DNA of 64,000 nt from Candidatus Latescibacterota bacterium (lineage in GTDB: Bacteria > Latescibacterota > UBA2968 > UBA8231). Shown here one piece after another: positions 15,647 to 50,388 of this stretch (position 1 is its first letter; each line of letters begins with the position of its first letter). The stretch is taken from positions 1,920,001 through 1,984,000 of the forward strand of contig OZ241889.1 of NCBI GenBank assembly GCA_965203355.1. The letters are read 5' to 3'. The notes under the pieces are model-generated. The model had not been told where the DNA came from and did not search any database. It saw only the letters and a program-made list of their open reading frames with translations. Position numbers and translations under genes: made by a program.

Positions 15647-15774
15647 AAAGAAAATGGGACCTCAAACCGAAAATTGAGGTCCCATTTCCGTAACTCGCTG
15701 TATGCGGTGCCGCGTATGCTACTTGAGCAGCAGCATCTGGACGGCGAGGAAATCACCGCCGGCCTGCAAGCGGT
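15647..15774 (-). repeat. Second copy of the last ~18 codons plus terminator of the giant surface-protein gene (paralog remnant)
   Basis: Aligns with 15801-15926; encodes RLQAGGDFLAVQMLLLK* versus RLQAGGDFLDIKKMLLLK*. Confidence 0.85.
15652..15687 (-). terminator. Intrinsic terminator, copy 2
   Basis: aaatgggacctcaa-N8-ttgaggtcccattt, followed by a T-rich tract on the minus strand. Confidence 0.8.
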
Positions 15775-15805
15775 CCGTAGGCGGGCGATCTGACGTTCAT
15801 AAAGA

Positions 15806-15841
15806 AAATGGGACCTCAAACCGAAAATTGAGGTCCCATTT
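15806..15841 (-). terminator. Intrinsic terminator of the giant surface-protein gene, copy 1
   Basis: Identical 14-bp stem, 26 nt after the stop codon. Confidence 0.85.
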
Positions 15842-15867
15842 CCGTAACTCTCGCGGTATCGCGTATG

Positions 15868-18800
15868 CTACTTGAGCAGCAGCATCTTCTTGATGTCGAG
15901 GAAGTCACCGCCCGCTTGCAAGCGGTAGAAGTACATCCCCGACGACACGCTCTGGCCGCTATCGTTGGTCGCGTCCCATTCCACCGCGTAGCGACCCGCC
16001 GCCTGATGCTCGGCGACCAGCGTCCGAATCGGCTGACCCAACACGTTATACACCGTCAGCCCCACGTCCGCCGCCTGCGGCAACGCATACTGAATCGTCG
16101 TCTGCGGATTGAACGGGTTCGGATAGTTGGCTGCCAGCGAGAACACGGCCGGGCGCGTCTGTAACGCCACTGGCGCGGGCAAGGCCAGCCGGTTGAAGCC
16201 CAACGCCCGGTCATACGTCTGGCTGTCGGTGATTTCGAGGGTCGTGTGCGCGATCTCGGTCGTCGGACGGAACACCAAGCGCAGCATCAGTTCACCGTCC
16301 GAAACGACATCGCCGTGGGCGGCTACCGTCAACACGCCCGCTTGGTCGGCCAGCACCTGCGGCGTAGCGAATGCGCTGCCGCCCAGCGGCTGATCGGTCC
16401 GAGCCTCAACGAAGGTTAGCTGGTCAGCGTCATACGCTATCTGCAAGCCGTAACCCTTGACCGCCACGAAGTCGGCCAATCGCACATTGACGACGAACTC
16501 TTCTCCCACGCTCGGCAGGGCTGTCGGCGCATCCAGATACAGCCGCGCATCCGCATTCAGCCCGGTCCGCAGCGGCACTGGCTTGCCCGCCGCGGCCACG
16601 CTGCGACCGAAATGGTCGGCCAACACGAAGAAATCGTCGAAGTCAATCGTCCCATTCGGCGCCAGGTCAAACGCCGGATCAAACCCGGCGTCGCCCGCCG
16701 TCAAACCGAAGCGGTCCGCCAACACGAAGAAATCGTCGAACCCAATGCGCGCGTCCGCACCGAACAGCCCCAACAGAGCCTGCCCTTGGCTATCGGCCAC
16801 CCGGTTGCGGACGGCCAATGCGGTCTGCTCGACCGAACCGGTCTCGTTGTCCCAATCAAAGGGCCGCACCTGATAGTTGTAATGCACCCCATGCTGCGCC
16901 GTCTCATCAACGAAGGACGCCACCCCGGCCTCCACCTCGGCGACCACGGAAAACGCTTCGTCTCCCACGGCGCGGCGATAGATGCGGTAGCCATGTACGC
17001 CCACGATCGGCTCGACCGGCGCCGGGCCTAGCGCACCGGCCACGACCCCTTGCAGCACCTGATCCGACGGCGACAGCGTCCACGTCAGCGCGATGCGACC
17101 GCCTTGATCGTCGGGCGCATCCAACACCTGTAGTGCCGACACGGCCAATGGCGCAATGTCGTCGGTCGCCCGCACGGCTTCAGCCGTCCAAGTAATCGAC
17201 GAACTCAGTACGCTACCGACGACATTCAACTTCGGTGCCACGCCGCGAGCGTAGGCTAATTCTTCCGGCAGCAACGACGCCAGCACCGGACCGCCCTGCG
17301 CGGCATTCCGGCTGGCTTGCAACGTCGCCGCCATCTGCGTGTAAGGCTGCGTCACATCGTCGGCCTCGACGAACACGGCTTTGGCCGCATGATGCGTGGT
17401 GCGCCCCCCGCGCTCGGCGGCAATGCCCCAGCGCGTCGAGACATTGTCCAGCGTCGCCACGATAGCGCGGCCCATCGCCACCCCGGGCACGGCATCCACC
17501 CGCGCCCACGGCACCATCTCATTTTCCAGCACCGGCAAGGCGCGGAAGATGCGATAGCCGTCCAGCGACTTATGATCCGCCGATAGCTCCCAAGACAGCA
17601 TCACGAAACCGCCTTGGTCGCCCTGGCCGTCCGCGCCTTTGTAGTCCTCGGCAATCAGATTGGTCGGCGCCGACAGCGGCGGCTCCACCACCGCCATGCC
17701 CACCGGCAGCGACTGACTCGCGCCACTGGCATCTACGACCGTGTAGGTCGCTACGGTCTCGCCCATCGTCGTCGGCGTCCCGGAAATCGTCCGGGTGGCC
17801 GGGTCAAACGACAGCCCGGCTGGCAAACCCGACACGCTATACGTCAGCGGCGGGGTGCCCCCGGAGACCGCCGGCAGCGTCAAGTTTGCTGGCACACCGA
17901 CGGTGAATTGAATCCTGTTGTCGGTATGCGAGTCGGCCGGATTGGCTTTGCCAGCACCGCTGTTGAGACCGAACAACGAACTCAGGTCGCCCCAGTCCAG
18001 CATCGCGTTGACTGTAATTGTGAACATCAACGAGACGCTTTCGTCGCCAGCCATCGCCGTGTAGGTGACTTCAACGGCCCCATCGGTCGCCGCTTCCGGT
18101 GTCCCGGAAATCGTCCGGGTGGTCGCGTCAAACGACAGTCCGGCTGGTAGATCCGACACGCTATACGTGATGGAGCCTTCGCCGCCCAGCGCCATCGGCA
18201 ATTCCAACGAGTGAATCGCCGTGCCCGCCGTATAGTTCTGGTTGGGAATCGAAGCACCCTCGACGAAAGCCAAGGCGATCATCATCTCCCTATCGCCGTC
18301 ATTATCGTCCATCATCCCGCTGTCTGTGTCGGTCAGCACCAGCGTCGCCGAACCCGCCGTCAAGCCCGGCAGCATCGCATTGAGCACCACCGTCTCGTCG
18401 CCTTCAGCCATACCATCGGAAACCGGATCAATCAACAGGCGCGTCGAACCCATAATCGAACCGGCGGCAATGGTAATCGTCGGATTGAATAGGGCCGAGT
18501 AGTCCGTGTCGCGGGTGGCACTACTCGAAGCCGCGTCAATCGAAACGGAGACCGTCGCGTTCTCGGCCAGCGGCTTGCCGTCCAGCGCGGCCATGACCAT
18601 CACCTCGGTCAATTCCGCCGACTCGCTGAGTGCGCTCGGCGTCACCGACAGCACCAAAGACGTGCTCGGCGTCTCGTCGTCGGAAATGCGGATGTCCACC
18701 TGCGCCCAACCGCCCGAAGCCGCCGCCCGAACCCCCAAGTGCTTATGACCGGCCGCCGAAGCGTTGTCAATCGGCGACAGGAACAGCGTCGTCCAACCCG

Positions 18801-21572
18801 CCTTTTCCCCGGCCGCGATGGTGACGGTCCCCGCTAAAGTCGCGGTATAATCCACGTCGCGGGTGGCCATCGCGCCGCTGGCCGGCGGCACAATCGTGAA
18901 GTGGACCGTCTCAGCCGCCGGAGCCGCGCCCGACAGAGTCGCCGTAACTCGGATTTCAGCCGTCTCGCCGTTTTCGCGCACGGCCGATTGCGAAGCCATC
19001 ACGCTGGCAACGCCAATCGTAACCGGCGCGGCGTCCGCGACCGTGATGGTGAAAGTCCGCACCCCGCCATCGCCGTCGGCATCAATCGCCGTATAGACGA
19101 CCGAGGCCATGCCCGCCAGCGTCGGCGTCCCGGAAAGCGTCCGCGTGGCCGCGTCAAACGACAGCCCCAGCGGCAGGTTCGACGAAACGCTGTACGAGAG
19201 CGTGCCTTGGCCGCCCGTGGCCGCGGGCAACACCGCGCTAAACGTTTGGCCAACCGTCGCTTCAAAGGCTAACGCGGCCGTGCCGAAACTCGGCCATCCC
19301 GTGTCCGCGGGCGTCTCGGAAGAATCATCCATCATCGCCGCGTCTTTCAGCTTGATCGCCACGGGGTCGACCGTGATCTTGTCGTCGTCTTGGTTCTTGA
19401 GGTCGTCCTTGAGTGGCTTCAGCGTGATCGTCTCGTCGTTGTCGGCGGCTCCGTCGTTGACCGGCGTGATCGTGATCGTCGTTGAGCCGGTGATCTCGCC
19501 CGCCGGAATCGTCAGCGAGCGAAGCACCGCCGTGTAATCCACATCCCGCGTCGCGGCACCGGACGCATCCTCATCCAAGACCAACGAGATCGTCGCATCC
19601 GCGTCGAGCACCTTGCCGTCTAACGTGCCGGTCACCGTGACCGTCGTCTCACCCGCGTCCTCTTTGATTTCACTCGGATTGACCGACAGCGTGATGTTCT
19701 CGCTCAGCGTCTCATCGTCCGTGATCTTGAACTCCACCGTATCCTTCTGAGACGCTTCGGTGCCGACCTTCGCTATCACCTCGAACGTCCGCGCATTATG
19801 CGAAGTGCTGTTGTCCACCGGTGTGACGCGCAGCGTCGCCGTGCCTTTCTTATCGCCCGCCGGGATCGTCAAGCCCTCAATGACTTCCACCTCGTAATGC
19901 ACATCGCGCGTCCCCTCCCCCGCCGTAATCTGAAAGTCCACCGCCTTCGCACCGGTTAAAGCCGTCTCCAACTCAACGGTCATCGTAACGTCCGTCACCC
20001 CAGCGGCCTCGCGGATGGTCGCCGGACTTAGCGTAAAATTCTTGAGCCGCGCCACCGCAACGTCTTCGACCGTGATGGTGCCGGGGTTGACCACAATAGG
20101 AATGACAAAAGAGTCCACATGCTTTAAGACATTATTTGGACCAGTATTGGGGATAGCATCAGGAGAGATTGACCCATCGCCGTTAAGGTCTATACCAATC
20201 GAGAGTTGCCTCACGTTGGTGCCAGCACCAAAATAAATAGGGGTCTGGCCCTGTCGGAACAGGGAGATACCTACTTCCGTTAATGCGCTATCGGCGGGCA
20301 CCACATAGGTATCCAAATAATCGCCATCATTGAAAAAATCGATCCCCAAGTCTTTTTCTACTAAGACGGTGCCCGCAGGGATGGTGTCGGAGTCCCTCAG
20401 ATTCCAAATATTATTATCCGTATCTAACCCAACATTTACATCACCCGCCGTATCACCTTCTCTGGTTCCAACATCCCCATCGCCGTTGAAATCTATGCCG
20501 ATGACTATAAGTTGGTTTCTATTAACTAATTCACGGATTGTACCGCTGGTTTTGACATCACCATCTGACTCGAAGGTCCCATCAACTTGCCTGTCGATCC
20601 GGACCTGCTTACCAGCACTATTCATCCGTTTCTTGAACGTCACATCCAGCGTCGCATCCTTGGTCCCCAGCACGATCTTACCCGCCTTATTATTCGGATC
20701 GACGGTGATCGTCGTCGTCGCGTCGATCCGCCGCTTTGGAATGGTCAACTTCCCCAGCCCCCGAATCGAGTAATCCACATCCCGCGTCAACGTACTAGTA
20801 GAAGAAACAACCAATTGAGTTTCAAGGTCGCGCTCCGTCCACGAGCCGCCCTTCAACAGCGCCGTCACTTCAACCGAGGTCGCATCCGCCTGCTTGCTGA
20901 GCTTGGCCGGCGAAACAGAGAGGTCGATATTGGGGACGAACACATCGTCGTCAATCAGCTCGATATAGAAGACGCCCGTAACACCAGTAAGATTCTCCAT
21001 ATAGGACGCGGCGGTTTTGCCTTTCTCGAAAATGGTTCCAGTAGAACCCCCTACGTCAATCACGATAGGAAGATTAACCCGCATTTTAACCTTACCCGTA
21101 TCGACCGCCGTACCCGCCGTTATGGTCAGGGTATCGACATCCGCCGAAGCGTTGGCCGCGTTAATTCCAATCCGATTATTGTTGATCGGAGTTATGGTGA
21201 TCGTCCCGGTCGCCTTGCGCTCGCCCTTCTTAATCACCAAAGAGGGGAAAGAGATTCTGAACAAATCGTTGAGATAGCGGGACGTGACACCGACAAGACG
21301 CAGCGGAAGCTGAAGATCGGCCTTCGCCTTCGCGTCAGCCGTTCGCAATTCGGCTGTTATCGTAATATCCTGCGCCCCTCCATCCTCGCGGACGGAACGC
21401 CGGTCAACGGATATGTCGATGTTCTCGGTCTGCGCCGCAGCCTCCCCGGCCCAGCCCAACACCAAACTGGCCACCAGCAAACAAAAAACGCTGTAAGTCG
21501 TTGTTTTTGAAAGACTTAACCCCCCCCCCCCCGACTTTCTGAGGACTGCACGAGCAACTTGAAGAGTTTCAT
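15868..21572 (-). CDS. Giant secreted surface protein (Calx-beta-like repeats, He_PIG putative Ig repeats, FN3-like, EF-hand/dockerin-like, cohesin-like, FlgD/T9SS type-A-like tail); frameshifted at a G13 tract
   Basis: GAGGAGG + ATG at 21572; main ORF open from ~21519 to 15868; repeats ATRDVDY..L..LTIPAG and LP.GLSFD..TRT.SGTP; two FDDFFVLAD motifs; NYPNPFNP...GMYFYRLQAG..KKMLLLK. Confidence 0.85.
21520..21532 (-). repeat. G13 homopolymer in the signal-peptide coding region, putative phase-variation switch
   Basis: 13 consecutive C on the + strand between the ATG at 21572 and the long ORF. Confidence 0.85.
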
Positions 21573-21713
21573 TATTTAGCCTCCTCTGGGCTTAGGTAAG
21601 TGATAAAGGGAATTGTGCTTGACGCAAAAATTAAAGAAAGCCACGCTTTTGAGCAACAAGATATGTCGAAGGGATAAAAAGCCGTCAGTCCCTCGGAGAT
21701 TTTTATGGAGCGT

Positions 21714-21983
21714 TTAGCCGGGCAAACGCGACAAAATCAGTGTGCCTAGGGCTAGTAGGGTGGTCAATTGGATACCGATAAGCCAGCGAAAATCGCGGCG
21801 TTGCTCCTGCCGTAATGCGGTCAACTCCTGCCGCATCTCCTGCCGTAGTGCGTCAACGGATCGCTCTATGTTGTCAAAGCGGGCGTTGATCTGGCGACCT
21901 TGCTCGGTCAACTGCTCGGCGATGCCTTCCAGCCGTCCAAGGCGGCGGTCGTGGTCTTGGTCTTGGGTAATCGGTTCGTTCAT
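21714..21983 (-). CDS. Small coiled-coil protein with C-terminal TM helix (DUF1640-like)
   Basis: RLGRLEG...RQEMRQELTALRQEQRRDFRWLIGIQLTTLLALGTLIL; GGAG RBS. Confidence 0.7.
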   Translation of the reverse strand: MNEPITQDQDHDRRLGRLEGIAEQLTEQGRQINARFDNIERSVDALRQEMRQELTALRQEQRRDFRWLIGIQLTTLLALGTLILSRLPG

Positions 21984-22023
21984 GGCTCCAGCCTTTCAGC
22001 GCATCAACCCGGCGCGGCGGTCG

Positions 22024-22857
22024 CTAGAGCGTAGAGGCGCGAGAAAGGCGGTGAGCGTTAATGGCGTCGCGCAGGGTTAGGGTCGCCTGCCGGGCCGCCG
22101 CCGCGAAATCGCTGCCTTGGGAGGCGTAGAGGATGCTGCGCGAGGAATTGATGAGGATGCCCGCGCCGCGCGAGTCGCCGCCGTTTTTGACGGCCAGCGC
22201 TATAGAGCCGCCTTGCGCGCCAACCCCGGGTATCAGCAAGGGCATGTCTGGCGCTAGGCCGCGGAGGCGCGCCAAGGGCTCGGGTTGGGTTGCGCCGACG
22301 ACTAGGCCGATGTTGTTGGCGGCGTTCCACTCGTGGGCTTTGGCGACGACCTGCTCGTATAAGGGCCGATCGCCCAGCGGATTCTTCTGAAAATCGTCGG
22401 CTCCGGGGTTGGACGTCAGGCAGACGAGAAAGGTGGTGCGGTCTCGGTACGCGGTGAAGGGCGAGACGCAGTCGTGGCCCAAATAGGGCGTTACTGTCAG
22501 CGCGTCACAGCCGAGGACTTCGTAGAAGGCGCGGGCGTATTGCTCGGCGGTGTTGCGCATGTCGCCGACCTTGGCATCGATGAGCACCGGGATGTCGGCG
22601 GGAATGTGGTCGAGCGTGCGTTTGAGCGTGGCAAAGCCGCCCGCGCCGAGGGCGTTGTAGAAAGCGAAGTTGGGCTTGTAGCAGCAGACGAGATCGCAGG
22701 TGGCGTCGATGATTTGCTGGTTGAAGTAGAGGACGGGATCGGCTTGGGTGCGGACGCTGGCGGGCAATTGCGCCGGATCGGTATCCAGCCCGACGCAGAC
22801 TAGCGAGTTATTCTTGGCGATCGCTCTCTTCCATTTCTCCGTAAAGCTCAAACTCAT
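22024..22857 (-). CDS. pyrF: Orotidine-5'-phosphate decarboxylase
   Basis: SLVCVGLD, YKPNFAFY, DAKVGDMRNTAEQYA, LTSNPGA, GLVVGAT, LIPGVGAQGG, NSSRSILYAS. Confidence 0.96.
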   Translation of the reverse strand: MSLSFTEKWKRAIAKNNSLVCVGLDTDPAQLPASVRTQADPVLYFNQQIIDATCDLVCCYKPNFAFYNALGAGGFATLKRTLDHIPADIPVLIDAKVGDMRNTAEQYARAFYEVLGCDALTVTPYLGHDCVSPFTAYRDRTTFLVCLTSNPGADDFQKNPLGDRPLYEQVVAKAHEWNAANNIGLVVGATQPEPLARLRGLAPDMPLLIPGVGAQGGSIALAVKNGGDSRGAGILINSSRSILYASQGSDFAAAARQATLTLRDAINAHRLSRASTL

Positions 22858-25214: not shown

Positions 25215-26162
25215 TCAAGAGAGCAGCGACCGCGCCGCCTGCGCGACGTGTCCGGGGGTCAAGCCGTATTTTTGCAGCAGGTCTTCGTTGGGGGCGGATT
25301 CGCCGAATACGTCGCGGATGCCAACGCGCCGCATGGGCGTGGGACGCCGCTCGCCTAGCACTTCAGCGACCGCGCCGCCCAAGCCGCCGACGATGGTGTG
25401 GTCTTCGGCCGTTACTACGCAGCCCGTTTGCGCGGCCGCGGCGACAATGGCGTCTGCGTCGAGTGGCTTGAGGGTCGGTACATGGAGGACGAGCGCCGAG
25501 ATCCCTTCGCGTGCCAACTCGTCGGTCGCGGCGAGGCAGCGCGGGGTTTGGGCGCCCGTGGATATGAGAGTGATGTCCGTGCCTTCGCGCAGGACCAGGG
25601 CGCGGCCCAACTCAAACTCGTAGTCGGCTGGGAAGACGACAGGTTCCGGGTCGCGCGTCATGCGCACGTACACCGGGCCGGGCAAGTCGTTGGCCGCCAG
25701 CATACAGGCGCGGACTTCTACGGCGTCGGCCGGGGCCAAAACGGTCATATTCGGCATGGCGCGCAGGACGGAGATGTCGGCGATCTCTTGATGGGTTTTG
25801 CCGGTTTTGCCAGTCAACAAGCCCGAGTAGGCACCGCAGAGCTTGACCGGTAGATTGGGCTGGGCGACGACGACGCGGAGCTGGTCGAGATCGCGGTTGA
25901 CGATGAAGCAGGCGAAGCTGCTCAGCCACGGCACGAGGCCGCAGGTGGCCATGCCAGCGGCGACGCCCATCATGTTTTGCTCGGCAATGCCCATTTCGAG
26001 GAAGCGGTCGGGCCGTGCGCGGGCGACTTTGTCGGCCTTGGTCGAGTTGGCCAAGTCGCCGTCGAGCACGTACACGCGCGGGTCGCGGTCCATCAGTTCG
26101 ATGAGTGTGTCGCCAAAAGCGTCGCGCTGGGCCAGCATCTCGCCGGTGGTGGAGAGGTTCAC
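25215..26162 (-). CDS. Transketolase C-terminal subunit (pyrimidine-binding + C domain)
   Basis: QRDAFG, DGDLANST, EMGIAEQNMMGVAAG, GKTHQ, TAEDHTIVGGLGGAVAE; GTG at 26162 overlaps the upstream TGA. Confidence 0.92.
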   Translation of the reverse strand: MNLSTTGEMLAQRDAFGDTLIELMDRDPRVYVLDGDLANSTKADKVARARPDRFLEMGIAEQNMMGVAAGMATCGLVPWLSSFACFIVNRDLDQLRVVVAQPNLPVKLCGAYSGLLTGKTGKTHQEIADISVLRAMPNMTVLAPADAVEVRACMLAANDLPGPVYVRMTRDPEPVVFPADYEFELGRALVLREGTDITLISTGAQTPRCLAATDELAREGISALVLHVPTLKPLDADAIVAAAAQTGCVVTAEDHTIVGGLGGAVAEVLGERRPTPMRRVGIRDVFGESAPNEDLLQKYGLTPGHVAQAARSLLS

Positions 26163-27025
26163 AGAGCGGCCTCCTGTGTGGCGAGTTCGTCTTGCGCTTG
26201 TTTGAGATCTTGGTCGGTCACGGGTTTGGAATGCCAGTTGAAGTCGTTTTCCATGTAGGAGATTCCTCGGCCCTTGATCGTGCGGGCGACGATAATGGTG
26301 GGTTGGCCGCGGTGTGATTTGGCTGCGGCAAAGGCCGCGAGAATGGCGGGGAAGTCGTGGCCGTCGGTCTCGATGGCGTTCCAGCCAAAGGCGCGCCAGC
26401 GGTTGAGCGGATTTTCCTGCGCGGCCAAGCGGTCGAGCACGCCGTAGCCCTTTTCGGTAGCCCAGCCGTATTGCTGGAGGCCGTTCCAGTCGAGGATGGC
26501 GGTGAGATTGTCGAGGCCGTAGCGCGCCGCGACAAAGGCCGCCTCCCATATTTGCCCCTCCTGTGAGTCGCCGTCGCCGATCATCACCCAAGTGCGGAAG
26601 CCTCGCCCTTGCAGACGGGCGGCGAGGGCCATGCCGAGGCCGGGCGACAGGCCCTGGCCCAGCGAGCCGGTGGACATGTCGAGGCCGGGGAGGACGCTCA
26701 TGTCTGGATGCCCTTGTAGGCGGGAGTCCACGGCGTCAAAGGTGGCGAGTTCCTCAATGGGCAGGTAGCCGCGCAGGGCCAAGGCCGCGTACAGACCGAT
26801 CGAGGAGTGTCCCTTGGATAGGATAAAGCGATCGCGGTCTGGGTCGTGCGGTCGGTCTGGGTCGATGTTCAACTCGGCGAAGTACAGGGCGATGAGCAAC
26901 TCGGCCGCGGACATGGGGCCACCTAAGTGGCCGGCCCCGGCGCGGTGTACCGACTCGACGACGAGGCGGCGCAACTGGATGGCATGGCGCTTTAGTTCGG
27001 CGTGGCGCGCGTGCGTCAGGCTCAT
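26159..27025 (-). CDS. Transketolase N-terminal subunit (ThDP-binding)
   Basis: GHLGGPMS, DRFILSKGH, LQGHP, STGSLGQG, GDGDSQEGQIWEA. Confidence 0.93.
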   Translation of the reverse strand: MSLTHARHAELKRHAIQLRRLVVESVHRAGAGHLGGPMSAAELLIALYFAELNIDPDRPHDPDRDRFILSKGHSSIGLYAALALRGYLPIEELATFDAVDSRLQGHPDMSVLPGLDMSTGSLGQGLSPGLGMALAARLQGRGFRTWVMIGDGDSQEGQIWEAAFVAARYGLDNLTAILDWNGLQQYGWATEKGYGVLDRLAAQENPLNRWRAFGWNAIETDGHDFPAILAAFAAAKSHRGQPTIIVARTIKGRGISYMENDFNWHSKPVTDQDLKQAQDELATQEAAL

Positions 27026-28094: not shown

Positions 28095-28940
28095 TTAAGG
28101 ATGATTGGCTTGGCGGGCCAGTAGGTCGGCGAGTGCCGCGCCGACTTGGTCGGGGTCGCTGGCGGGCGCTGCGGCTAGCGCGCGTCGGTAGAAGTGCTCG
28201 GCCTGCCGATAGCGATCCTGCGCGTCGTACAGACGGCCTAGGTAATAACAGGTGCGAGCCAGGTCGGGATGGTCGCCCGTTTGCCGGGCTAATGCGCTGT
28301 GGTACAGGGGGGCGGCCCGTTGGTAGTGGCCTTGGAGGAACAGGGCATGGGCGCGGGCGCGGAGGTTGAGGGCATGGGCGCGCTGGGCGAGAGAATCGCT
28401 CGCGGCGCGGTCGCCCTCGGCGCGGTAGAGGTCGGCTAACTTCTGCATAGTCGCGGCCACTTCTTCGTCGCCTTGGTGCGTCTGTTGGAAGGCGAGGACG
28501 CGGTCGTAGAGTGGGGTGGCCTCGGCTAGCCGCCGCTGTAGCCGATAGGTGTCGCCCAACTTGTCGAGCGTCAGCATCTTGTCGGGATGGTCGTCTGGGA
28601 GCGGGGTTTGCCGCGCGCGCAAGTGCTGGTAGAGGCTTTCGGCTCGGGCGAGTTCGCCGCGCACCACGTGGAGTTGAGCCAGTTGGTGGGCGGTGCGGCC
28701 GTAGCGGGGGTCGTCGGGAGCGAAGGTCTCGGCTAGGACCAGGGCGTGGGCTAGGGATTGTTCGGCCTCGTCAAAGCGGCTCTGGCCGAGTGCTGAGCGT
28801 CCGGCTTGATAGTGTTGGGACCAATCCTCGGCGTTGGGGTCTGGCTGGCTACAGGCAAGGGCGAGGGAGGAAAAGAAGATACGCAGCGTGGTCTGCGGTC
28901 TGTGGGCAGTGGGCCGTCGTTTAAGCAAATAGCTTTTCAT
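28095..28940 (-). CDS. TPR lipoprotein (kinesin-light-chain-like repeats)
   Basis: LALAC; repeats DHPD...L..LG..Y..Q.R..EA..LY.RAL. Confidence 0.8.
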   Translation of the reverse strand: MKSYLLKRRPTAHRPQTTLRIFFSSLALACSQPDPNAEDWSQHYQAGRSALGQSRFDEAEQSLAHALVLAETFAPDDPRYGRTAHQLAQLHVVRGELARAESLYQHLRARQTPLPDDHPDKMLTLDKLGDTYRLQRRLAEATPLYDRVLAFQQTHQGDEEVAATMQKLADLYRAEGDRAASDSLAQRAHALNLRARAHALFLQGHYQRAAPLYHSALARQTGDHPDLARTCYYLGRLYDAQDRYRQAEHFYRRALAAAPASDPDQVGAALADLLARQANHP

Positions 28941-30148
28941 GGTATTTCCGCGGGTGGCTGTTGCAGGGCGTCGAGCAGTTGCTGGGTCTTAGTGTGCAGC
29001 CTCGCATCGTCCGCACTCAGCGCTAGACTGCGTCGCAACGCCTGTTCGGCCGCCGTGCGTTCTCCCTTGCTGAACAAGCCCAAGCCGAGGAGGTGCCAGC
29101 CTTCGGCGTCGTCTGGGTGTGCTGCAACGGCTCGGCGGCCGTAGGCAACGGCCTCGCGGTAGCGTCCGAGTTGGCCGGCCATGTGGCCGGCGTTGAGCAA
29201 GGCGGGGAAATACGCTGGGTCTTGGTCGAGGGCGACCTGTACGTAGCGCAACGCGGCTTCGGGTTGTTGCAGCTTTAGGAGGTCGCCGGCGAGGCGGTTG
29301 AGCAGATCGAGATCGCCCGGGCGCAGGGCGATGGCCCGGTCAAATTTGTTCTCGGCTTGGGCAAAGTACCCGTGCCGGACAAAGAACAGGCCGAGGTTGT
29401 AGTGATGGGCGGCTTCTTCGGGCGCGTTGAGGATGGCCGCGCGCAGTCGCTTGACCTCTTGGCCGCTGAGGGCTTGTAAGTGGGTAAAACTCGCTAGGGC
29501 CTGCTGCGCCAAGGTGTCGCGGCCGGCCTGGCGGGCGAGGGTCGCGAGGCGATAGAAGGCGTCAGCAAAGCCGATGTCGAGCAAGGTGGCGCGCTGAAAG
29601 GCCGCCAAGGCATCGTCCTGCTGGCTCTCGGCTGCGAGGCTTTGGCCGAGGTAGTAGTAGAGCGTGGCGTCGTTGGGAAAAAGGCGCAGGGCTTCGCGCA
29701 GTTCGCGGGTGGCTTCGGCGTAGCGGCCCGTGGCCAAGTACAACTCGCCCAAGCGTCGGCGCACCGGCGAGTTGTCGGGATTGAGCAAAACGGCGCGCTG
29801 GAGATAGGTGTCGGCGCGGTCGTACTGGCCCAGCTTGGTGTAGATTCCGCCGAGATTGACAAAACCCTTGGCGAAGTCGGGTTGGAGGCGGAGGGTTGTT
29901 TCGAGGGATTCGATGGCCAGTGCGTAGCGGCCCTGCGCTGCATGGGACGAAGCCAGCACATTGTGGAGATCGGCGTTGGTCGAGTCGAGGGCTAGCCCCG
30001 CGCGGGCGGTGGCCGCTGCTTCGGCAAAACGGGTCGCCGCAAAGTGAGCGCGGGCGCGGGCGAGGTGGTCGCTTGGGTCCGGTGCTGGCACTGGCTCAGA
30101 AGCGCAAGAGGCGAGCGCGAAGGCCGCGCCGAGCAGTCGCCACGGCAT
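28937..30148 (-). CDS. TPR lipoprotein
   Basis: MPWRLLGAAFALASC; multiple TPRs (NLGGIY, RLGELY, YNLGLFF). Confidence 0.85.
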   Translation of the reverse strand: MPWRLLGAAFALASCASEPVPAPDPSDHLARARAHFAATRFAEAAATARAGLALDSTNADLHNVLASSHAAQGRYALAIESLETTLRLQPDFAKGFVNLGGIYTKLGQYDRADTYLQRAVLLNPDNSPVRRRLGELYLATGRYAEATRELREALRLFPNDATLYYYLGQSLAAESQQDDALAAFQRATLLDIGFADAFYRLATLARQAGRDTLAQQALASFTHLQALSGQEVKRLRAAILNAPEEAAHHYNLGLFFVRHGYFAQAENKFDRAIALRPGDLDLLNRLAGDLLKLQQPEAALRYVQVALDQDPAYFPALLNAGHMAGQLGRYREAVAYGRRAVAAHPDDAEGWHLLGLGLFSKGERTAAEQALRRSLALSADDARLHTKTQQLLDALQQPPAEIP

Positions 30149-30149
30149 C

Positions 30150-32393
30150 TCAGGGCTGCTCATCAAAGCGGTGGAAGCGGTCGATTTCCAGCTCGGCGTA
30201 CCCTTGCCGTGCGCCGCTGGGCCAGCGGATTTCGAGGGTATCGACGCGGGTGCGCGCCCCCAAGCCGAGGGCCGGGGACAAGCTGTTGGACGACCCAAAG
30301 CCCGGACCGCTGCTGATTTCCACGACCCCGAGCAGGTCTTGGGCGCGCCAACGCACTTGAGCGCCGATGGCGCCAGGCCCTAAGTCCACGCCGAGAAAGT
30401 GATTGGGGTGGCCTTCGTTGCGGTACAGGCTGTTGGCCCACAGGTCGCCTGGGTAGTGGCCGCCGACCGCGGTATAGAGGTCGAGATCGCCGTCGAGGTC
30501 GTAGTCGGCAAAACCCACGCCGTGCCCCTTGCCCGGGTTGCCGACGCCGGCCGCGGCCGTGATGTCGGCGAAGCGGTCGCCGCGATTGTGAAACAGGGTG
30601 TTGGGTTCAAAGCGCGCCATTATCGGTCCGCCGTTGGCCAGATAGAGGTCGATTAGGCCGTCGTAGTCAATGTCGCCATAGCCCGCGCCCATCGAGCCAA
30701 AGGAGCGGGCCAATCCCTGCTGAGGGGCGATGTCGCGGAAGGTCGTTCCGTCGTTGCGATACAGGTAAGCACGGGTCGGGCGCAAGGCCAACCCGGTGAC
30801 TTGCGACTGCACGATGTCTTCGTAGAAGTTCATGGCTGATACGAAGAGGTCGAGATCGCCGTCGCCGTCGCCATCAATGAAAAACCCCACATAGCTGCCC
30901 TCGCCCGGTTTGGCCACGCCCGCCTCGGCGGTGACGTCGCTGAAGTGCGGCCCGTCGTTGCGGTAGAGGTGGTTGGCGGCGGCTACGTCCATGGCGTAGA
31001 GGTCGCTGTCGCCGTCGCCATCGTAATCGCCGCAGGCCACGCCGAGGGTTTTGCCGCCATAGGCCACGCCGGCTGGTGCGCCGCGGTCGGCAAAAGTGCC
31101 GTCCCCTTGGTTGTGGTACAGGCGGTTGGGTCGCCCGCTGCCGGTGATGCCCGAGGCCACGTACAGATCGGGTAGGCCGTCGTTGTCGTAGTCGGTCCAG
31201 ACGGCCACGAAGCTGTCGTCGGCACCGGCGACTCCAGCTTGAGGCGCGACATCGCGAAAGGTTCCATCGCCTTGATTGCGGTAGAGCGAGTTGGGCGCGC
31301 GCCCTTCCCAAGCGTCGCGGGTGGCAAAGAGGTCTGGGTGGCCGTCGCCATCGTAGTCCGCGGCAATGGCTGCCCAGCCGCCGCGCGGGTCGGCGAGGTC
31401 GGCGGCGGTAGATACGTCGGCAAAACGGCCGTCGCCGTCGTTGCGGTAGAGCGCGTGTGGGGCTTGGATACCGGCGGCGAAGAGATCCGGGTCGCCGTCG
31501 GTGTCGTAGTCGAGCCACGCCACGCCACGTCCCCGATCGAGCTTGCCGACGCCGGCGGCTGCGGCCACATCGGCGAAGCGCACGGGCGACGCCTCGGCCA
31601 GCGGTGCTAGGCCGATCTGATGGGCCGGTTCGAGGTCGCCCGGGTACGTGCCGTATGCTTCGATATAGGCCAGCCGCAGGTTCCACTGGCGCACAGTGCG
31701 CTGAGGCGATGCTGGAGGCAGCGCGTCAATGGCGCGCTTGTACGCGGCGACGGCCTCGGGATATTGGCGCAAGTGATGGTAGGCCGCGCCCAACAGGAAG
31801 GATAGGTACACGTCGTCCGGCCGCTCGGCCAGCAAGCTAGCGAAGCGGGCGGCCGCCTCGGCAAAATCGCCCAAGCGCAAAAGCGAGGCGGCTTGGCCCG
31901 AACGCGCTCGGTAGTGCTTGGGATCGACCGCGAGGATGGCTTCGTACTGGGCCAGGGCCCCAGCGGCGTCGGGTTGGTCTTGCGTCATTAGGAGATCGGC
32001 GTATGCCATGCAGGCGACCGCGTTGCCGGGAAAGGCCGTCACTATGGAGTCAAAAAGGGCGCGGGCCTCGGCTTGGCGTCCGAGTTTGCTCAGCGTTTGG
32101 GCCAACTGCAATCGGGGTTCGATGCGGTCGGGCGCGCGCCGCTGCGCGAGGCCGAGCGGCGATAAGGCTTGTTGGTAGCGCTTTTGCCGCAAGTAGATTT
32201 GCCCGAGCGCGAGCGCGGCCTCGGGGTGCAGGGTGTCGCGCCGGACGAGTGCTTCGAGCACGTGGGCGGCCGAGTCCAAACGGCCGGCCGCTAGGTGTTG
32301 GCGGGCCTGTTCGTAGCGCTGGGCGCTCTGTGCGGGTAGGGGCGGCTCGGAGGCGCAGCCCAACAAGGCGGCAAACGCGATCCCTAGGCGCAT
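30150..32393 (-). CDS. TPR + FG-GAP/CRTAC1 (ASPIC/UnbV) lipoprotein
   Basis: LLGC lipobox; N-terminal TPRs; repeated DYD.DGD.DL...LYRN.GDG.F.DV; C-terminal GLG...VDTLEIRWPSG; start at 32393 or 32417. Confidence 0.88.
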   Translation of the reverse strand: MRLGIAFAALLGCASEPPLPAQSAQRYEQARQHLAAGRLDSAAHVLEALVRRDTLHPEAALALGQIYLRQKRYQQALSPLGLAQRRAPDRIEPRLQLAQTLSKLGRQAEARALFDSIVTAFPGNAVACMAYADLLMTQDQPDAAGALAQYEAILAVDPKHYRARSGQAASLLRLGDFAEAAARFASLLAERPDDVYLSFLLGAAYHHLRQYPEAVAAYKRAIDALPPASPQRTVRQWNLRLAYIEAYGTYPGDLEPAHQIGLAPLAEASPVRFADVAAAAGVGKLDRGRGVAWLDYDTDGDPDLFAAGIQAPHALYRNDGDGRFADVSTAADLADPRGGWAAIAADYDGDGHPDLFATRDAWEGRAPNSLYRNQGDGTFRDVAPQAGVAGADDSFVAVWTDYDNDGLPDLYVASGITGSGRPNRLYHNQGDGTFADRGAPAGVAYGGKTLGVACGDYDGDGDSDLYAMDVAAANHLYRNDGPHFSDVTAEAGVAKPGEGSYVGFFIDGDGDGDLDLFVSAMNFYEDIVQSQVTGLALRPTRAYLYRNDGTTFRDIAPQQGLARSFGSMGAGYGDIDYDGLIDLYLANGGPIMARFEPNTLFHNRGDRFADITAAAGVGNPGKGHGVGFADYDLDGDLDLYTAVGGHYPGDLWANSLYRNEGHPNHFLGVDLGPGAIGAQVRWRAQDLLGVVEISSGPGFGSSNSLSPALGLGARTRVDTLEIRWPSGARQGYAELEIDRFHRFDEQP

Positions 32394-32541
32394 TGGCGTC
32401 TTTGGCAGTTCGTACATTTTGCGCTGCATAGTGTACGAACTGAGGGGCAAATTGGCGAATGGCATCGGCGCAAAGCGGTTGATTCGCGGTGCGTTGTGCC
32501 CTATACTTTTGCCGAATGAAAACTCTGTGGAGGTAGTCGCA

Positions 32542-32994
32542 ATGAAACAATGGACATGGTTGGCCCTCGCGGGTCTGTTGACCACCCTGAGTTGCGGTTC
32601 TGAAGAAGCCGTTCAACCGACGCCCGATTACGCCGATGATTGGGTCGGCGAATACGAGGGCAGCGGGAATTTTGCTCTATCCAATGGCGTCAGCGGAGAA
32701 GACCGCCCCGTTACCATGAGTATTGTGCGGGTTTCTCCTAAGCAAGTTACCGTGTCTGCCACGTTGGTTTATGGCGAGGGCCGCAACGATTTCATTCAGG
32801 CGATCGACATCCTGCAACCCGACGATCCCGAGCGGCTCACCTTGGAAGTGCGCTACCTCAGTGCTAGGACGGTTTATGCCTTTGCACAAAAAGAAGGCAC
32901 GATCACCGGATCCATCGCGACGAGTTCGCTGCGGCTTGGAGGAACTTGGGGCCAGGATCAGATTATGACCGAGATAGAGGTCGTCCGGCAGTAG
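32542..32994 (+). CDS. Hypothetical lipoprotein
   Basis: GGAGG RBS; MKQWTWLALAGLLTTLSC; beta-rich mature part. Confidence 0.7.
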   Translation: MKQWTWLALAGLLTTLSCGSEEAVQPTPDYADDWVGEYEGSGNFALSNGVSGEDRPVTMSIVRVSPKQVTVSATLVYGEGRNDFIQAIDILQPDDPERLTLEVRYLSARTVYAFAQKEGTITGSIATSSLRLGGTWGQDQIMTEIEVVRQ

Positions 32995-33010
32995 GATTTT
33001 GCTGTATGAA

Positions 33011-34270
33011 ATGGCCCGTACTAAAAGGAACCGCGAGCGAGTGCCGCGCCGTCGCTTCTTTTATCTAGGAGCCGCCGCGCTGACGATTGCCCTCGGCGTG
33101 GTCGGCTCGTATTGGTATTTGCAGGACCGCGCAATCACCGCGCAAAAAGCCGTCGAGCGCGGCGACCGCTTGCTCGGCAAGGGCCAAATGGACGAAGCGA
33201 TCCGCTATTACCAGCAGGCCATTGAACTGGATCCAGACCTCGCCCAAGCCCATAGCAACTTAGGCGCGACGCACGCGGCACTGGAGCACTTTGCCGAGGC
33301 GATCCCCCACTTCAAACAGGCACTAACGCTAGCCCCCGATCACTTTGAGGCGCGGATTGGCCTCGCTGTTTCGCTCGATGGATTGGGCCGTTTTTTAGCC
33401 GCCGAGGATAGCTATAAGAAGGCGCTGGCCCTCCGGCCCGACTTTGGGGCGGTGTACTACAATCTCGGCTATCTCTACCAGCAACAGGGCCTGTACGCCG
33501 AGGCCGCCACCCAGTACGAGGAAGCCGTGCGCTTGCTGCCGGGCTTTCTACAAGCTCGGGCCAACTTGGGGAGGGTCTATCACTTGCAGCACCGCTTGGG
33601 CGAAGCTATTGCCGAATACCAGCGCACCCTCGCAGACCACCCGGAGGAAGGGCGGGTACACGCCCTTCTAGGCGAGAGTTACATGGCCTTGAGCCAATAT
33701 GAAGAAGCTAGGGGGGCCTATCGGCGGGCTATGGAACTCGGCGTCGAGACCGCGAGTGCGTTTTACGACCTCGGCGTTATCAGTGAGCAGGAAGGCAAGC
33801 TCGAAGCGGCGCGGAGTTACTTTCACCAGGCCCTGCTCAACAATGCGGCCCACGCCGCCGCCTATCACCGCTTGGGCGCGGTGACGGCTAAGTTGGGGCA
33901 CGAGGAACAGGCGGCTACATACTATTTGGAAGCCATTAAGCGCGACCCCGGCCACGCGGGTGCTCACTACAGCTTGGCCCAGCTTTACCTCAAGCAGGGG
34001 CGCGGCGACGAGGGGCGCGAGCTAATGCAGGTCTTTGCCAAGCTCAAGGAATACGAGGGCCGGCTGGCCAGCCTCAAGCGGGCTGCGAGCCGGTCGCCAC
34101 GCTCACCGGAGGCCAGCTACAACGTGGGGCTGCTCCACCTAGAGTTCGGGTATGTCAGCAAGGCCGCCGCGGCCTTTGAGCAACTCCTCAAACTCCATCC
34201 CGAATTTTCCGCCGCGCAGGATCGGCTCGCCGAAATTGAGCGAGTGCGGGCCGCGCACAGCGCGGGTTGA
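33011..34270 (+). CDS. Membrane-anchored TPR protein
   Basis: Basic N-terminus, one TM helix, about 10 TPRs (AHSNLG, YYNLG, YNVG). Confidence 0.88.
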   Translation: MARTKRNRERVPRRRFFYLGAAALTIALGVVGSYWYLQDRAITAQKAVERGDRLLGKGQMDEAIRYYQQAIELDPDLAQAHSNLGATHAALEHFAEAIPHFKQALTLAPDHFEARIGLAVSLDGLGRFLAAEDSYKKALALRPDFGAVYYNLGYLYQQQGLYAEAATQYEEAVRLLPGFLQARANLGRVYHLQHRLGEAIAEYQRTLADHPEEGRVHALLGESYMALSQYEEARGAYRRAMELGVETASAFYDLGVISEQEGKLEAARSYFHQALLNNAAHAAAYHRLGAVTAKLGHEEQAATYYLEAIKRDPGHAGAHYSLAQLYLKQGRGDEGRELMQVFAKLKEYEGRLASLKRAASRSPRSPEASYNVGLLHLEFGYVSKAAAAFEQLLKLHPEFSAAQDRLAEIERVRAAHSAG

Positions 34271-43461: not shown

Positions 43462-43468
43462 ACTACAC

Positions 43469-44236
43469 ATGCGACTTATAGCAAAACACATTCGCGTCTT
43501 CCTGTGCTTCGCCTTGGCCGTCGGGGGGTGCGCTACCCTTAGGTCGCTCGAATCCCAGGCAAAGCGGGAGTACTTCATTGACCTGGAGTCGGTCCTGCCC
43601 GATGGCGATACCTATTACATCGATCCGATCGACAGTTCGGTCGTGTGGAGCGAGCAAGGGGTGCAAGTCAAGGTCAAGTTCTACGACGATGCCATGCTCG
43701 ACGCCGAATACGGCACTCAATTCACGCCCTATACGCTCACGGGCGTCGAGATTCCCGGCTTAGACTATACGCCGCCGCTGTGGACCGTTTTTGAAGTAAC
43801 CGTGATCAACCGCACTCGCGAGCGGGTGGAGCTAGATCCCACGCAGACTATTCTGCGCTTGGACGACGGTAGCCGTCTGCTCTGTCGCCAAGGAGTGGGA
43901 GGGTGGTACGACAAGGACGAATTCTTCGACTATTCCTATTTAAAGTGGGGAGGACGAGAAGGTAATGTGCGCTATCACGCCAGCTTGGACCGCGATCCTA
44001 TTTGGGAGAAGAGCGAGTACCACCGGGAAAAGCCCGTGCGCAAAGGGTCCAGATACGTTGGCAAGTTGACCTTTCCACCGCTGCCGGCCGAGACGAAGTC
44101 GTTCACCCTTGAAGTACACGACTTCATTCTGGCCTTTGATCGGTTTGAAGTGGGGTACGGCAATCCGGTGGAATTTACCGACCTGAACTTCCACTTCAAC
44201 GTCGATCACGGAGTGCGTTGGGTGGAGAACAAATAG
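43469..44236 (+). CDS. Hypothetical lipoprotein (paralog of 55278)
   Basis: LAVGGC lipobox; IDP.DSS, PP..TVFEV.VIN.T, GNP.E..D..F.F.VD.G. Confidence 0.75.
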   Translation: MRLIAKHIRVFLCFALAVGGCATLRSLESQAKREYFIDLESVLPDGDTYYIDPIDSSVVWSEQGVQVKVKFYDDAMLDAEYGTQFTPYTLTGVEIPGLDYTPPLWTVFEVTVINRTRERVELDPTQTILRLDDGSRLLCRQGVGGWYDKDEFFDYSYLKWGGREGNVRYHASLDRDPIWEKSEYHREKPVRKGSRYVGKLTFPPLPAETKSFTLEVHDFILAFDRFEVGYGNPVEFTDLNFHFNVDHGVRWVENK

Positions 44237-44237
44237 A

Positions 44238-44894: not shown

Positions 44895-44895
44895 A

Positions 44896-47398: not shown

Positions 47399-47449
47399 GT
47401 TGGAAGGCAACTGAAGACCGAATCTCTACACTGCATGAGGATAGCTGCC

Positions 47450-50371: not shown

Positions 50372-50388
50372 GCTAGGAGGTTGACGCC

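What the first reader, a model, noticed from the sequence alone, without database searches (positions are those of the whole stretch)
21480..21590. G13 tract frameshifts the signal peptide of a ~1900-aa surface protein: apparent ON/OFF phase variation
Seen: on the minus strand, GAGGAGG-N7-ATG (21572) reads MKLFKLLVQSSES, then C+G13, then TAA. The long ORF resumes right after the tract (LSLSKTTTYSVFCLLVASLVLGWAGEAAA-Q), which looks like the h/c region of a signal peptide. The distance from the ATG to the tracked TTG start is 92 nt, so G11 or G14 would restore the frame. It is the longest homopolymer I saw in the window. Known: poly-G slipped-strand switches near the 5' end of surface-protein genes are classical contingency loci. 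Inference: phase-variable display of a giant adhesin or coat protein in an uncultured lineage, OFF in this assembly.
Basis: partly seen in the sequence, partly recalled or inferred. Interest (0 to 1): 0.8.

Follow-up and report, generated by a model that had tools for sequence, protein, structure and literature searches.

The report
Poly-G frame switch in surface-protein gene
A run of 13 G's separates a well-placed start codon from the export signal of one of fifteen related giant surface-protein genes in an uncultured, probably sponge-associated bacterium, so the gene reads as switched off but is one slipped base from being on; this kind of switch is well known in pathogens and has not been shown to flip here.

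Summary
On the minus strand, GAGGAGG-N7-ATG (21572) opens an 18-codon frame that runs through G13 (21532-21520) into TAA. The 1870-codon frame continues behind the tract. Only G11, G14 or G17 join the two frames.

The tract is not an assembly error. Contigs from three public runs (two studies, one possibly the window's own source) carry exactly G13.

The gene is one of 15 paralogs on a 4.17-Mb contig. They encode T9SS-type surface proteins with a variable N-terminal head and a conserved stalk. The upstream ATG and its first nine codons align with the family's normal N-terminus. The tract sits in a 15-residue insertion that none of 45 compared relatives has. The downstream TTG and GTG starts would leave a signal peptide too short to work. 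The ORF shows no decay.

The most likely reading is a slipped-strand ON/OFF switch, now OFF. This is a new member of a known kind, closest to Neisseria pilC and the Bifidobacterium breve pilus G-tracts. Switching is unproven: no other tract length was seen, and only contigs could be examined.

A diverged copy in a sponge metagenome run keeps a 13-G tract but is in frame through flanking indels.

This scan has noted similar G/C runs before, on two other paralogs of this genome and in other sponge symbionts. I did not check those notes.

The parts
21580..21586 (-). Shine-Dalgarno sequence GAGGAGG, 7 nt before the ATG
   Evidence: SD-like motifs precede 18 of 39 listed ORF starts in the window (starts not curated), so this organism uses SD-led initiation.
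21570..21572 (-). ATG, the ancestral start codon of the gene. An in-frame TAA lies 6 nt upstream.
   Evidence: In one search its first nine codons (MKLFKLLVQ) align with the family N-terminus (e.g. MIHAKLLMQ of P0037).
21517..21572 (-). The 18-codon frame translated at G13 (MKLFKLLVQSSESRGGGG, then TAA at 21519-21517): the OFF product
21520..21532 (-). G13 homopolymer (C13 on the + strand), the proposed slippage site
   Evidence: Exactly this length in contigs of runs X3, X5 and X6.
21433..21519 (-). Rest of the signal-peptide coding region in the long frame (LSLSKTTTYSVFCLLVASLVLGWAGEAAA; predicted cleavage before Q at 21432). It contains the only downstream start candidates, TTG 21480 and GTG 21474.
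   Evidence: family-wide LLxASLVLGWAGEAxAQ; the TTG and GTG starts leave 16- and 14-residue peptides with no charged n-region.
20074..21432 (-). Variable N-terminal head of the mature protein (about 450 aa): tandem Calx-beta/Ig-like beta-sandwiches and Asp-rich loops
   Evidence: 44-72% mean identity to the 14 same-contig paralogs, against 82-96% for the rest; model pLDDT 81.8; best fold matches are NCX1/CALX CBD12, intimin D0-D1 and FdeC.
16126..20073 (-). Conserved stalk: Calx-beta-like and three He_PIG (cadherin-like) modules, a dockerin-like module (residues 1601-1661 of P0001) and a further conserved domain
15868..16125 (-). C-terminal sorting domain of T9SS type, and the stop codon
   Evidence: FlgD_ig 40.8 bits (cut-off 27); Por_Secre_tail 24.2 bits (below its cut-off of 27); the CTD motifs NYPNPFNP and YFYRLQAG are shared with hundreds of loci in FCB-group genomes.
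21573..21713 (-). 141-nt intergenic leader and presumed promoter region between the upstream 89-aa gene and the ATG
   Evidence: No sigma-70-type promoter match, no Rfam family and no fold beyond shuffles (z = +2.1).
15647..15850 (-). Tandem duplicate of the gene's last ~60 nt plus its terminator hairpin. It is a remnant of a paralog's 3' end and gives context only; it is not part of the switch.
   Evidence: families D3, D5, D9

Best explanation
A real, slippage-prone G13 run lies inside the signal-peptide coding region of one member of a 15-gene family of giant T9SS-type surface proteins. It sits between the ancestral start codon with its charged n-region and the hydrophobic core.

At G13, ribosomes that start at the strong SD+ATG stop after 18 codons. 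The 1870-codon body has no usable start or export signal of its own, so the gene is OFF. Gain of one G (G14) or loss of two (G11) during replication joins the two frames. The result is a pre-protein with a 46-47-residue signal peptide, and the protein could then be exported and displayed.

Shown: the anatomy, that the tract is real, the homology of the ATG to the family start, and the intactness of the body. Inferred: that the tract length actually fluctuates in the population, and that this is used as a stochastic ON/OFF (contingency) switch for one variant of a variable surface coat.
For: - The anatomy is exact, and only G11/G14/G17 fuse the frames.
- G13 is found without any difference in contigs of 491, 491 and 543 nt from runs X3, X5 and X6 (two studies), so it is not a homopolymer miscall of one assembly.
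- G13 is far above the G/C run length taken as phase-variable in Campylobacter: cut-off 7 or more, with switching shown for 8 or more (PMC6321876, passages read).
- MAFFT places MKLFKL-LVQ on the family's MIHAKL-LMQ. The tract falls in a 15-residue insertion present in 0 of 45 other family N-termini.
- The ATG has a strong SD at the usual spacing.
- The long frame has no ATG/GTG/TTG between 21591 and 21480. Starts at TTG 21480 or GTG 21474 have no SD, and leave 16 or 14 residues before the cleavage site with no charged n-region.
- The body is intact over 1870 codons. It differs at only 2 of 450 columns that are invariant in the other 32 family members (range in the family 0-10), and at 4 of 688 among the 15 same-contig copies (range 0-24). 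There is thus no sign of decay.
- The family has a variable N-terminal head and a conserved stalk and anchor, the usual architecture of variable surface-protein families.
- A diverged copy in run X1 (175-nt contig, 20 substitutions, 3 gap letters) keeps a 13-G run at the same place, so the tract has persisted through divergence.
- Precedents exist with the same anatomy: a poly-G in the signal-peptide region of Neisseria pilC (PMC13017665, passage read); and B. breve pilus genes split by a G-tract in the reference genotype, with only a fraction of cells in frame (PMC9187656, abstract and passages).
Against: - No length other than 13 was seen. X3, X5 and X6 all show the same OFF length, and one of the two studies may be the window's own source. 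Contigs drop rare variants, so this does not exclude minority lengths, but it gives no positive sign of switching.
- The diverged X1 copy also has 13 G. It is in frame through a 1-nt deletion and a 2-nt insertion in the flanks, not through a tract change.
- No protein with the fused N-terminus is on record: 81 hits, near length; 246 shorter candidates, 1 hit, an unrelated truncated paralog.
- In the X1 copy an ATG lies 4 nt behind the tract and would open a signal peptide of normal family length. The ancestral position of the tract may therefore be just 5' of the start codon, and the window copy may have lost that ATG.
- The stretch behind the tract is read in a different frame in the window than in X1.
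- Broken family members exist (P0087).
- A single run of 13 or more is expected about 0.3 times in a 4.17-Mb genome by a first-order model.
Confidence: 0.5

Rival explanations
1. Fixed frameshift. The copy is a recently inactivated or decaying family member. The tract is a mutational scar, and no adaptive switching takes place.
For: The same OFF length appears in 3 runs of 2 studies. No in-frame protein is on record. Relative to the X1 copy, the window copy has further frame-changing indels and lacks the ATG behind the tract. Relative to paralog P0006, the codon aligned with its ATG is ACG. Another family member is truncated by a frameshift (P0087).
Against: The body has 1870 codons without a stop and no excess of private changes at conserved columns (2 of 450). 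The SD and ATG are intact. One slippage step restores the frame. A 13-G run is kept in a diverged copy. Gene conversion among paralogs could also explain the intactness.
Confidence: 0.2
2. The gene is expressed despite G13. Either RNA polymerase slips on the 13-base run, or ribosomes shift by -1 on the G run just before the TAA. A constant fraction of product would then be full length, and the DNA need not change.
For: The run is all G, so Gly-tRNAs can re-pair in the -1 frame. The stop codon directly behind the run (GGT TAA) is the kind of slow site that favours shifting. A -1 shift there gives the same product as G14. A stable G13 in all runs would fit this reading. That such recoding exists on long homopolymers is general knowledge (review cited in PMC9187656, reference list seen), not tested here.
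Against: There is no stimulatory structure: the leader folds no better than shuffles (z = +2.1). No RNA data could be examined. In the described G-tract cases, the DNA tract length varies (PMC9187656 abstract).
Confidence: 0.12
3. The ATG frame is a short leader ORF and the tract is a leader or RBS-region element. Translation of the body starts behind the tract. Tract length would then tune initiation or coupling rather than the frame.
For: In the X1 copy, as rebuilt from the listed differences, an ATG lies 4 nt behind the tract and opens a 29-residue signal peptide, one residue longer than the 28 computed for P0003. A G run can mimic an SD (inference). Earlier unchecked notes of this scan place C14 and C18 runs in the leaders, not the coding regions, of two other paralogs.
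Against: In the window copy there is no ATG/GTG/TTG behind the tract before TTG 21480, and no SD there. The resulting signal peptide would have 14-16 residues and no n-region. The ATG's first nine codons align with the family's own N-terminus.
Confidence: 0.1
4. Sequencing or assembly artefact: the true length is in frame.
For: Long G runs are error-prone on all platforms. The library types of the runs are not on record.
Against: Three contig sets from two studies agree on 13, with 0 differences over 491-543 nt. The diverged X1 contig also has 13.
Confidence: 0.04

Closest known systems
Neisseria pilC1/pilC2 (poly-G tract in the signal-peptide coding region)
   Same: A G homopolymer lies inside the signal-peptide coding part of a surface or adhesin gene, and frameshifts there turn translation on or off (PMC13017665, passage read).
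   Different: pilC is a type IV pilus-associated protein of a human pathogen. Here the product is a giant T9SS-type beta-sandwich protein of an uncultured, probably sponge-associated FCB-group bacterium. Switching is demonstrated for pilC and not here.
Bifidobacterium breve UCC2003 sortase-dependent pilus genes bbr_0113 and bbr_1889 (intragenic G-tracts)
   Same: This is a host-associated non-pathogen whose reference genotype is out of frame at a G-tract in a surface-structure gene. Only a fraction of the population carries the productive length (PMC9187656, abstract and passages). It shows that a uniformly OFF consensus is compatible with a working switch.
   Different: The host is Gram-positive and the structure is a sortase pilus. 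Those tracts were changed to 10 or 9 to put the genes in frame, against 13 here. Tract-length heterogeneity was measured there by Maximum Depth Sequencing; it could not be measured here.
Poly-G/C contingency loci of Campylobacter (the 'phasome')
   Same: G/C runs of 7 or more at the 5' ends of surface-related genes are treated as translational phase-variation switches (PMC6321876, passages).
   Different: There, many loci per genome were catalogued and several verified. Here one locus was examined, and the rest of the genome could not be read.
Homopolymeric tracts at 5' ends as a general inactivation device (Listeria inlA poly-A)
   Same: A 5' homopolymer gives a very short truncated product and reverts at high frequency (PMC2831843, abstract).
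   Different: That tract is poly-A and short. Here it is poly-G and long.

Membership tests
SSR-mediated translational phase-variable gene (contingency locus) | Uninterrupted homopolymer of a length known to slip (G/C of 7-8 or more) | tested here: met
   G13 at 21532-21520. Threshold taken from PMC6321876.
SSR-mediated translational phase-variable gene (contingency locus) | The tract lies between the start codon and the body, so that length changes not divisible by 3 toggle the full-length frame | tested here: met
   Only G11, G14 and G17 fuse ATG 21572 to the 1870-codon frame. The ATG is homologous to the family start.
SSR-mediated translational phase-variable gene (contingency locus) | Tract length differs within populations or between close strains | tested here: inconclusive
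   3 of 3 near-identical contig sets have G13, and the diverged X1 contig also has 13. Only contigs were available, and these drop minority variants.
SSR-mediated translational phase-variable gene (contingency locus) | Expression of the product switches with tract length | not testable with these tools
   No RNA, protein or reporter data.
SSR-mediated translational phase-variable gene (contingency locus) | The gene is otherwise intact (not a decayed pseudogene) | tested here: met
   1870 codons are open. Private changes occur at 2 of 450 otherwise-invariant columns, which is mid-range for the family.
T9SS cargo protein with C-terminal sorting domain | C-terminal domain of the Por_Secre_tail / FlgD_ig type at the very C-terminus | tested here: met
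   FlgD_ig 40.8 bits (cut-off 27) at residues 1825-1887 of 1901. Por_Secre_tail 24.2 bits, below its cut-off of 27. The precomputed Pfam list for the called protein P0002 includes PF18962.
T9SS cargo protein with C-terminal sorting domain | N-terminal Sec signal peptide | tested here: inconclusive
   A full signal peptide exists only in the G14/G11 reading. Paralogs have a normal one. This was a heuristic check; no SignalP was run.
T9SS cargo protein with C-terminal sorting domain | T9SS machinery in the same genome | tested here: inconclusive
   The window holds weak matches, all below the curated cut-offs: PorV/PorQ family 42.4 bits (cut-off 90), PorW/SprE 117.8 (250), PorK/GldK 73.8 (350). 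The rest of the genome is not held.

The most novel reading that the evidence does not exclude
This locus is one element of a 'phasome' in which each member of a 15-gene family of T9SS-displayed giant proteins, with a variable distal head on a conserved stalk, carries its own G/C-run switch. A clonal symbiont population would then present a shifting mosaic of surface coats to sponge phagocytes and phages. The same device may recur across unrelated sponge-symbiont phyla as a convergent trait of that habitat. The basis is thin: my own results for this locus, plus unchecked earlier notes of this scan (C14 and C18 runs at two other paralogs of this genome, and similar runs in seven other sponge-associated genomes).
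Probability: 0.3. Interest if true: 0.75.

Novelty: new member of a known kind. Interest (0 to 1): 0.5.

Why it matters
Homopolymer switches are textbook devices of host-adapted pathogens. They have been shown in one gut commensal (PMC9187656), but I found no report of them for sponge symbionts or for T9SS cargo. Three full-text searches returned nothing relevant in the rows listed: 15 of 54, 12 of 105 and 10 of 120 papers. I saw listings only.

If the tract does switch, an uncultured symbiont would be varying a large, costly surface protein stochastically. That bears on how sponge symbionts avoid being eaten by their filter-feeding host and how they escape phages.

The finding also has a practical side. 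Gene callers truncate such genes: here the called protein starts at GTG 21474 and lacks a signal peptide. Surface-protein repertoires of symbiont MAGs are therefore under-read.

Tried and rejected
- **Whole genome.** None is held for this window. A genome-wide census of G/C runs and the 5' regions of the 14 paralogs could therefore not be read.
- **Genome-contig scan with the full-length family alignment.** All match only the last ~100 residues, and none is a family member.
- **The genome search with the N-terminal 300 aa.** 0 of 5 handles and 0 of 2 genomes ('phylum of G001') had a match. This says nothing.
- **Metagenome-contig scan with an alignment of ten N-termini.** 1 of 371 matched stretches passed. 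On reading, L081 is a chance match with no family signal peptide.
- **Protein search among shorter proteins with residues 1-80.** 1 hit of 246 candidates, a frameshift-truncated paralog of another genome. No fused N-terminus was found.
- **The listing of cluster members.** No names or accessions.
- **Leader.** No sigma-70-type promoter (0 found; shuffles give 0.3). The RNA fold is weaker than that of shuffles (z = +2.11). No Rfam family; the only matches are two chance hairpin hits at the terminators.
- **Earlier-findings look-ups by sequence, relatives and near.** Nothing.
- **Protein atlas for the head.** Best score 0.86, under the 0.9 level; a Calx-beta lead only.
- **Run X2 and run X4.** Neither was laid. 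X2's small share is no evidence of anything.
- **Contig depths at the tract.** I considered using them to bound minority tract lengths and rejected this. Depth is one figure per contig, and variants are dropped.
Full report
**1.
On the minus strand, GAGGAGG (21586-21580) lies 7 nt before ATG 21572. That frame reads MKLFKLLVQSSES, then CGG and the rest of a 13-G run (21532-21520), then GGT and TAA (21519-21517). The long frame is open from 21591. It passes through the run as GGGG and continues LSLSKTTTYSVFCLLVASLVLGWAGEAAAQ and so on. Its first ATG/GTG/TTG is TTG 21480, giving 1870 aa. Varying the run in a script from 9 to 17 shows that only 11, 14 and 17 join the ATG to the long frame; 13 stops after 18 codons, and 12 or 15 give a 55-56-residue dead end. 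The run is the only homopolymer over 9 in the window, and no other G/C run exceeds 7. A first-order model expects 0.0045 such runs per window and about 0.3 per 4.17 Mb.

**2. The tract is real.**
No whole genome is held for this window. Six public runs hold the stretch or part of it, and I laid four on 20900-22200. In X3 and X5 (one study) and X6 (another study), contigs of 491, 491 and 543 nt cover 21443-21933 or 21391-21933 with 0 differences and 0 gaps. That gives exactly 13 G three times. One of the two studies may be the window's own source, so independent support is one or two studies. All four runs were available only as contigs, which drop rare variants. They show that G13 is the main form but cannot show whether other lengths are present.

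**3. The gene.**
- Pfam finds three He_PIG modules, a weak Calx-beta match, FlgD_ig (40.8 bits) and a sub-threshold Por_Secre_tail at the very C-terminus.
- PDB sequence matches are the cadherin-like modules of the SraP adhesin and a dockerin.
- An AlphaFold model of the first ~490 mature residues (pLDDT 81.8) is a string of beta-sandwiches. Its best fold matches are the tandem Calx-beta domains of NCX1/CALX, intimin D0-D1 and FdeC.
- The window also holds weak, sub-threshold matches to PorV/PorQ, PorW/SprE and PorK/GldK.
- A neighbouring transketolase-family gene is closest (78%) to proteins labelled Latescibacterota or Gemmatimonadetes MAG. Run X1, which holds a diverged copy, is labelled a sponge metagenome.
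- I read the protein as a giant T9SS-type surface protein of an uncultured FCB-group bacterium, probably sponge-associated.

**4. The family.**
- A protein search with residues 1-450 returned 81 proteins. Fourteen lie on the same 4,171,184-bp contig as the window's own protein, so the genome has at least 15 copies. Others lie on contigs of 4.52, 2.80 and 1.59 Mb.
- Their N-termini share one signal peptide, for example MIHAKLLMQRLAYVPWLL... followed by LGWAGEAAAQ.
- The window copy is 44-72% identical to its 14 same-contig paralogs over residues 1-500 and 82-96% over the rest. That is a variable head on a conserved stalk. T9SS cargo is held by its C-terminus (established knowledge, not tested here), so the variable head would be the distal tip.

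**5. Where translation should start.**
- In a MAFFT alignment of the conceptual G14 N-terminus with the first 55 residues of 45 family members, MKLFKL-LVQ falls on MIHAKL-LMQ. The tract lies in a 15-residue insertion that 0 of the 45 have.
- The ATG therefore looks like the family's own start codon, and the insertion with the run has split the n-region from the h-region.
- SD-like motifs precede 18 of 39 listed ORF starts in the window, so the GAGGAGG is meaningful.
- Behind the tract there is no SD. The TTG or GTG starts would leave 16 or 14 residues before the AAA|Q site, with no charged n-region. The fused form has net charge +3 and a strong 10-residue hydrophobic core; paralog P0003 has a 28-residue peptide (heuristic only).
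- The gene caller chose GTG 21474 (P0002), which cannot give an exported protein.

**6. Is it a dead gene?**
The body differs from the other 32 aligned family members at only 2 of 450 columns that are invariant in all the others. The family range is 0-10. Among the 15 same-contig copies the figure is 4 of 688, with a range of 0-24. There is no internal stop in 1870 codons. This argues against long-standing decay, although gene conversion between paralogs could also keep a silent copy intact. A truncated family member does exist in another genome (P0087).

**7. A diverged copy.**
- Run X1 holds a 175-nt contig over 21424-21597 with 20 substitutions and 3 gap letters: two bases put in behind 21484 and one left out at 21518.
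- I rebuilt it in a script from the 15 listed substitutions (5 are not listed) and the gaps. The result is 175 nt long, keeps a 13-G run, loses the TAA, and is open from the ATG into the body.
- It also has an ATG 4 nt behind the run that would open a signal peptide of 29 residues, one more than the 28 computed for paralog P0003 in the same call, with the family's R-L...P-C-L-L motif.
- This cuts two ways. The ATG-run-signal-peptide arrangement is older than the split between the two copies, and the run has been kept. But the run has the same length in both, the frame differs through flanking indels, and the ancestral place of the run may be just in front of the normal start codon. In the window copy that ATG is absent, and the 12 codons behind the run are read in another frame than in X1.

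**8. Reading.**
- **Slipped-strand ON/OFF switch, now OFF (0.5).** This is the best-supported explanation. It has the anatomy of Neisseria pilC (PMC13017665, passage). It also has the population picture of the B. breve pilus genes, where the reference genotype is out of frame and only a fraction of cells carry the productive length (PMC9187656, abstract and passages). The run is far longer than the lengths shown to switch in Campylobacter (PMC6321876).
- **Fixed frameshift in a silent copy (0.2).**
- **Expression at G13 by transcriptional slippage or a -1 ribosomal shift at GGT-TAA (0.12).**
- **A leader-ORF or RBS role with a downstream start (0.1).**
- **Artefact (0.04).**
- What is missing is any direct sign that the length changes.

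**9. Novelty.**
The mechanism is a known kind; the lineage, the habitat and the protein family are new for it. Three full-text searches listed no paper on such switches in sponge symbionts or in T9SS cargo among the rows shown: sponge/symbiont/phase variation/homopolymeric (15 of 54 papers); sponge/metagenome/contingency loci and related terms (12 of 105); type IX secretion/phase variation and related terms (10 of 120). I saw only the listings.

This scan has noted the same kind of thing before. There are C14 and C18 runs in the leaders of two other paralogs of this genome, and G/C runs at the 5' ends of surface-protein genes in seven other sponge-associated genomes of different phyla. These are unchecked AI notes; I could not read those loci and do not count them as evidence. 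If they hold, the interest lies in the pattern rather than in this single locus.

Noticed in passing
window 15647-15926: The last ~60 nt of the surface-protein gene (encoding ...RLQAGGDF...MLLLK*), a spacer and a perfect 50-nt hairpin-containing block are present twice in tandem, about 152-154 nt apart. The block is 100% identical between 15647-15696 and 15801-15850. The coding remnant is 84-94% identical. It looks like the 3' end of another paralog left behind by recombination between family members.
   Followed up: partly
window 21714-21983 (minus strand): An 89-aa ORF directly upstream of the leader encodes a small coiled-coil protein with a C-terminal hydrophobic segment and has no real Pfam match. 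In all four laid runs, the summed contig depth over 21873-21983 (its first 37 codons) is many times that of the flanks, and loose ends occur at both borders. Many similar contigs therefore exist in these communities. No copy number can be given.
   Followed up: no
window 21200-21470: The start of the mature head region attracts many 85-95% identical contigs in all four runs. Loose ends at 21451 and 21484 read as the signal peptides of other paralogs. This fits the multi-copy family.
   Followed up: partly
protein P0006 (same 4.17-Mb contig, not in the window): This is the only other family member of the 14 on this contig whose called N-terminus lacks the n-region (MTYGVCCLLVAS...). Its ATG aligns with ACG 21501-21499 of the window copy. 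It may have the same leader and tract arrangement. Its DNA could not be read.
   Followed up: no
window 25215-26591 (minus strand): The listed 458-aa ORF over the transketolase-family gene is too long. All 120 listed relatives have 311-322 aa and cover only 65-69% of it, so the true start lies further in.
   Followed up: no
window 40492-53661 and 28095-34270: This region holds a cluster of large TPR-rich proteins, a weak PorV/PorQ-like protein, a weak PorW/SprE-like 1090-aa protein, TolQ and a weak GldK/PorK-like FGE-domain protein. It may be an envelope or T9SS-related region. All matches are below the curated cut-offs.
   Followed up: no
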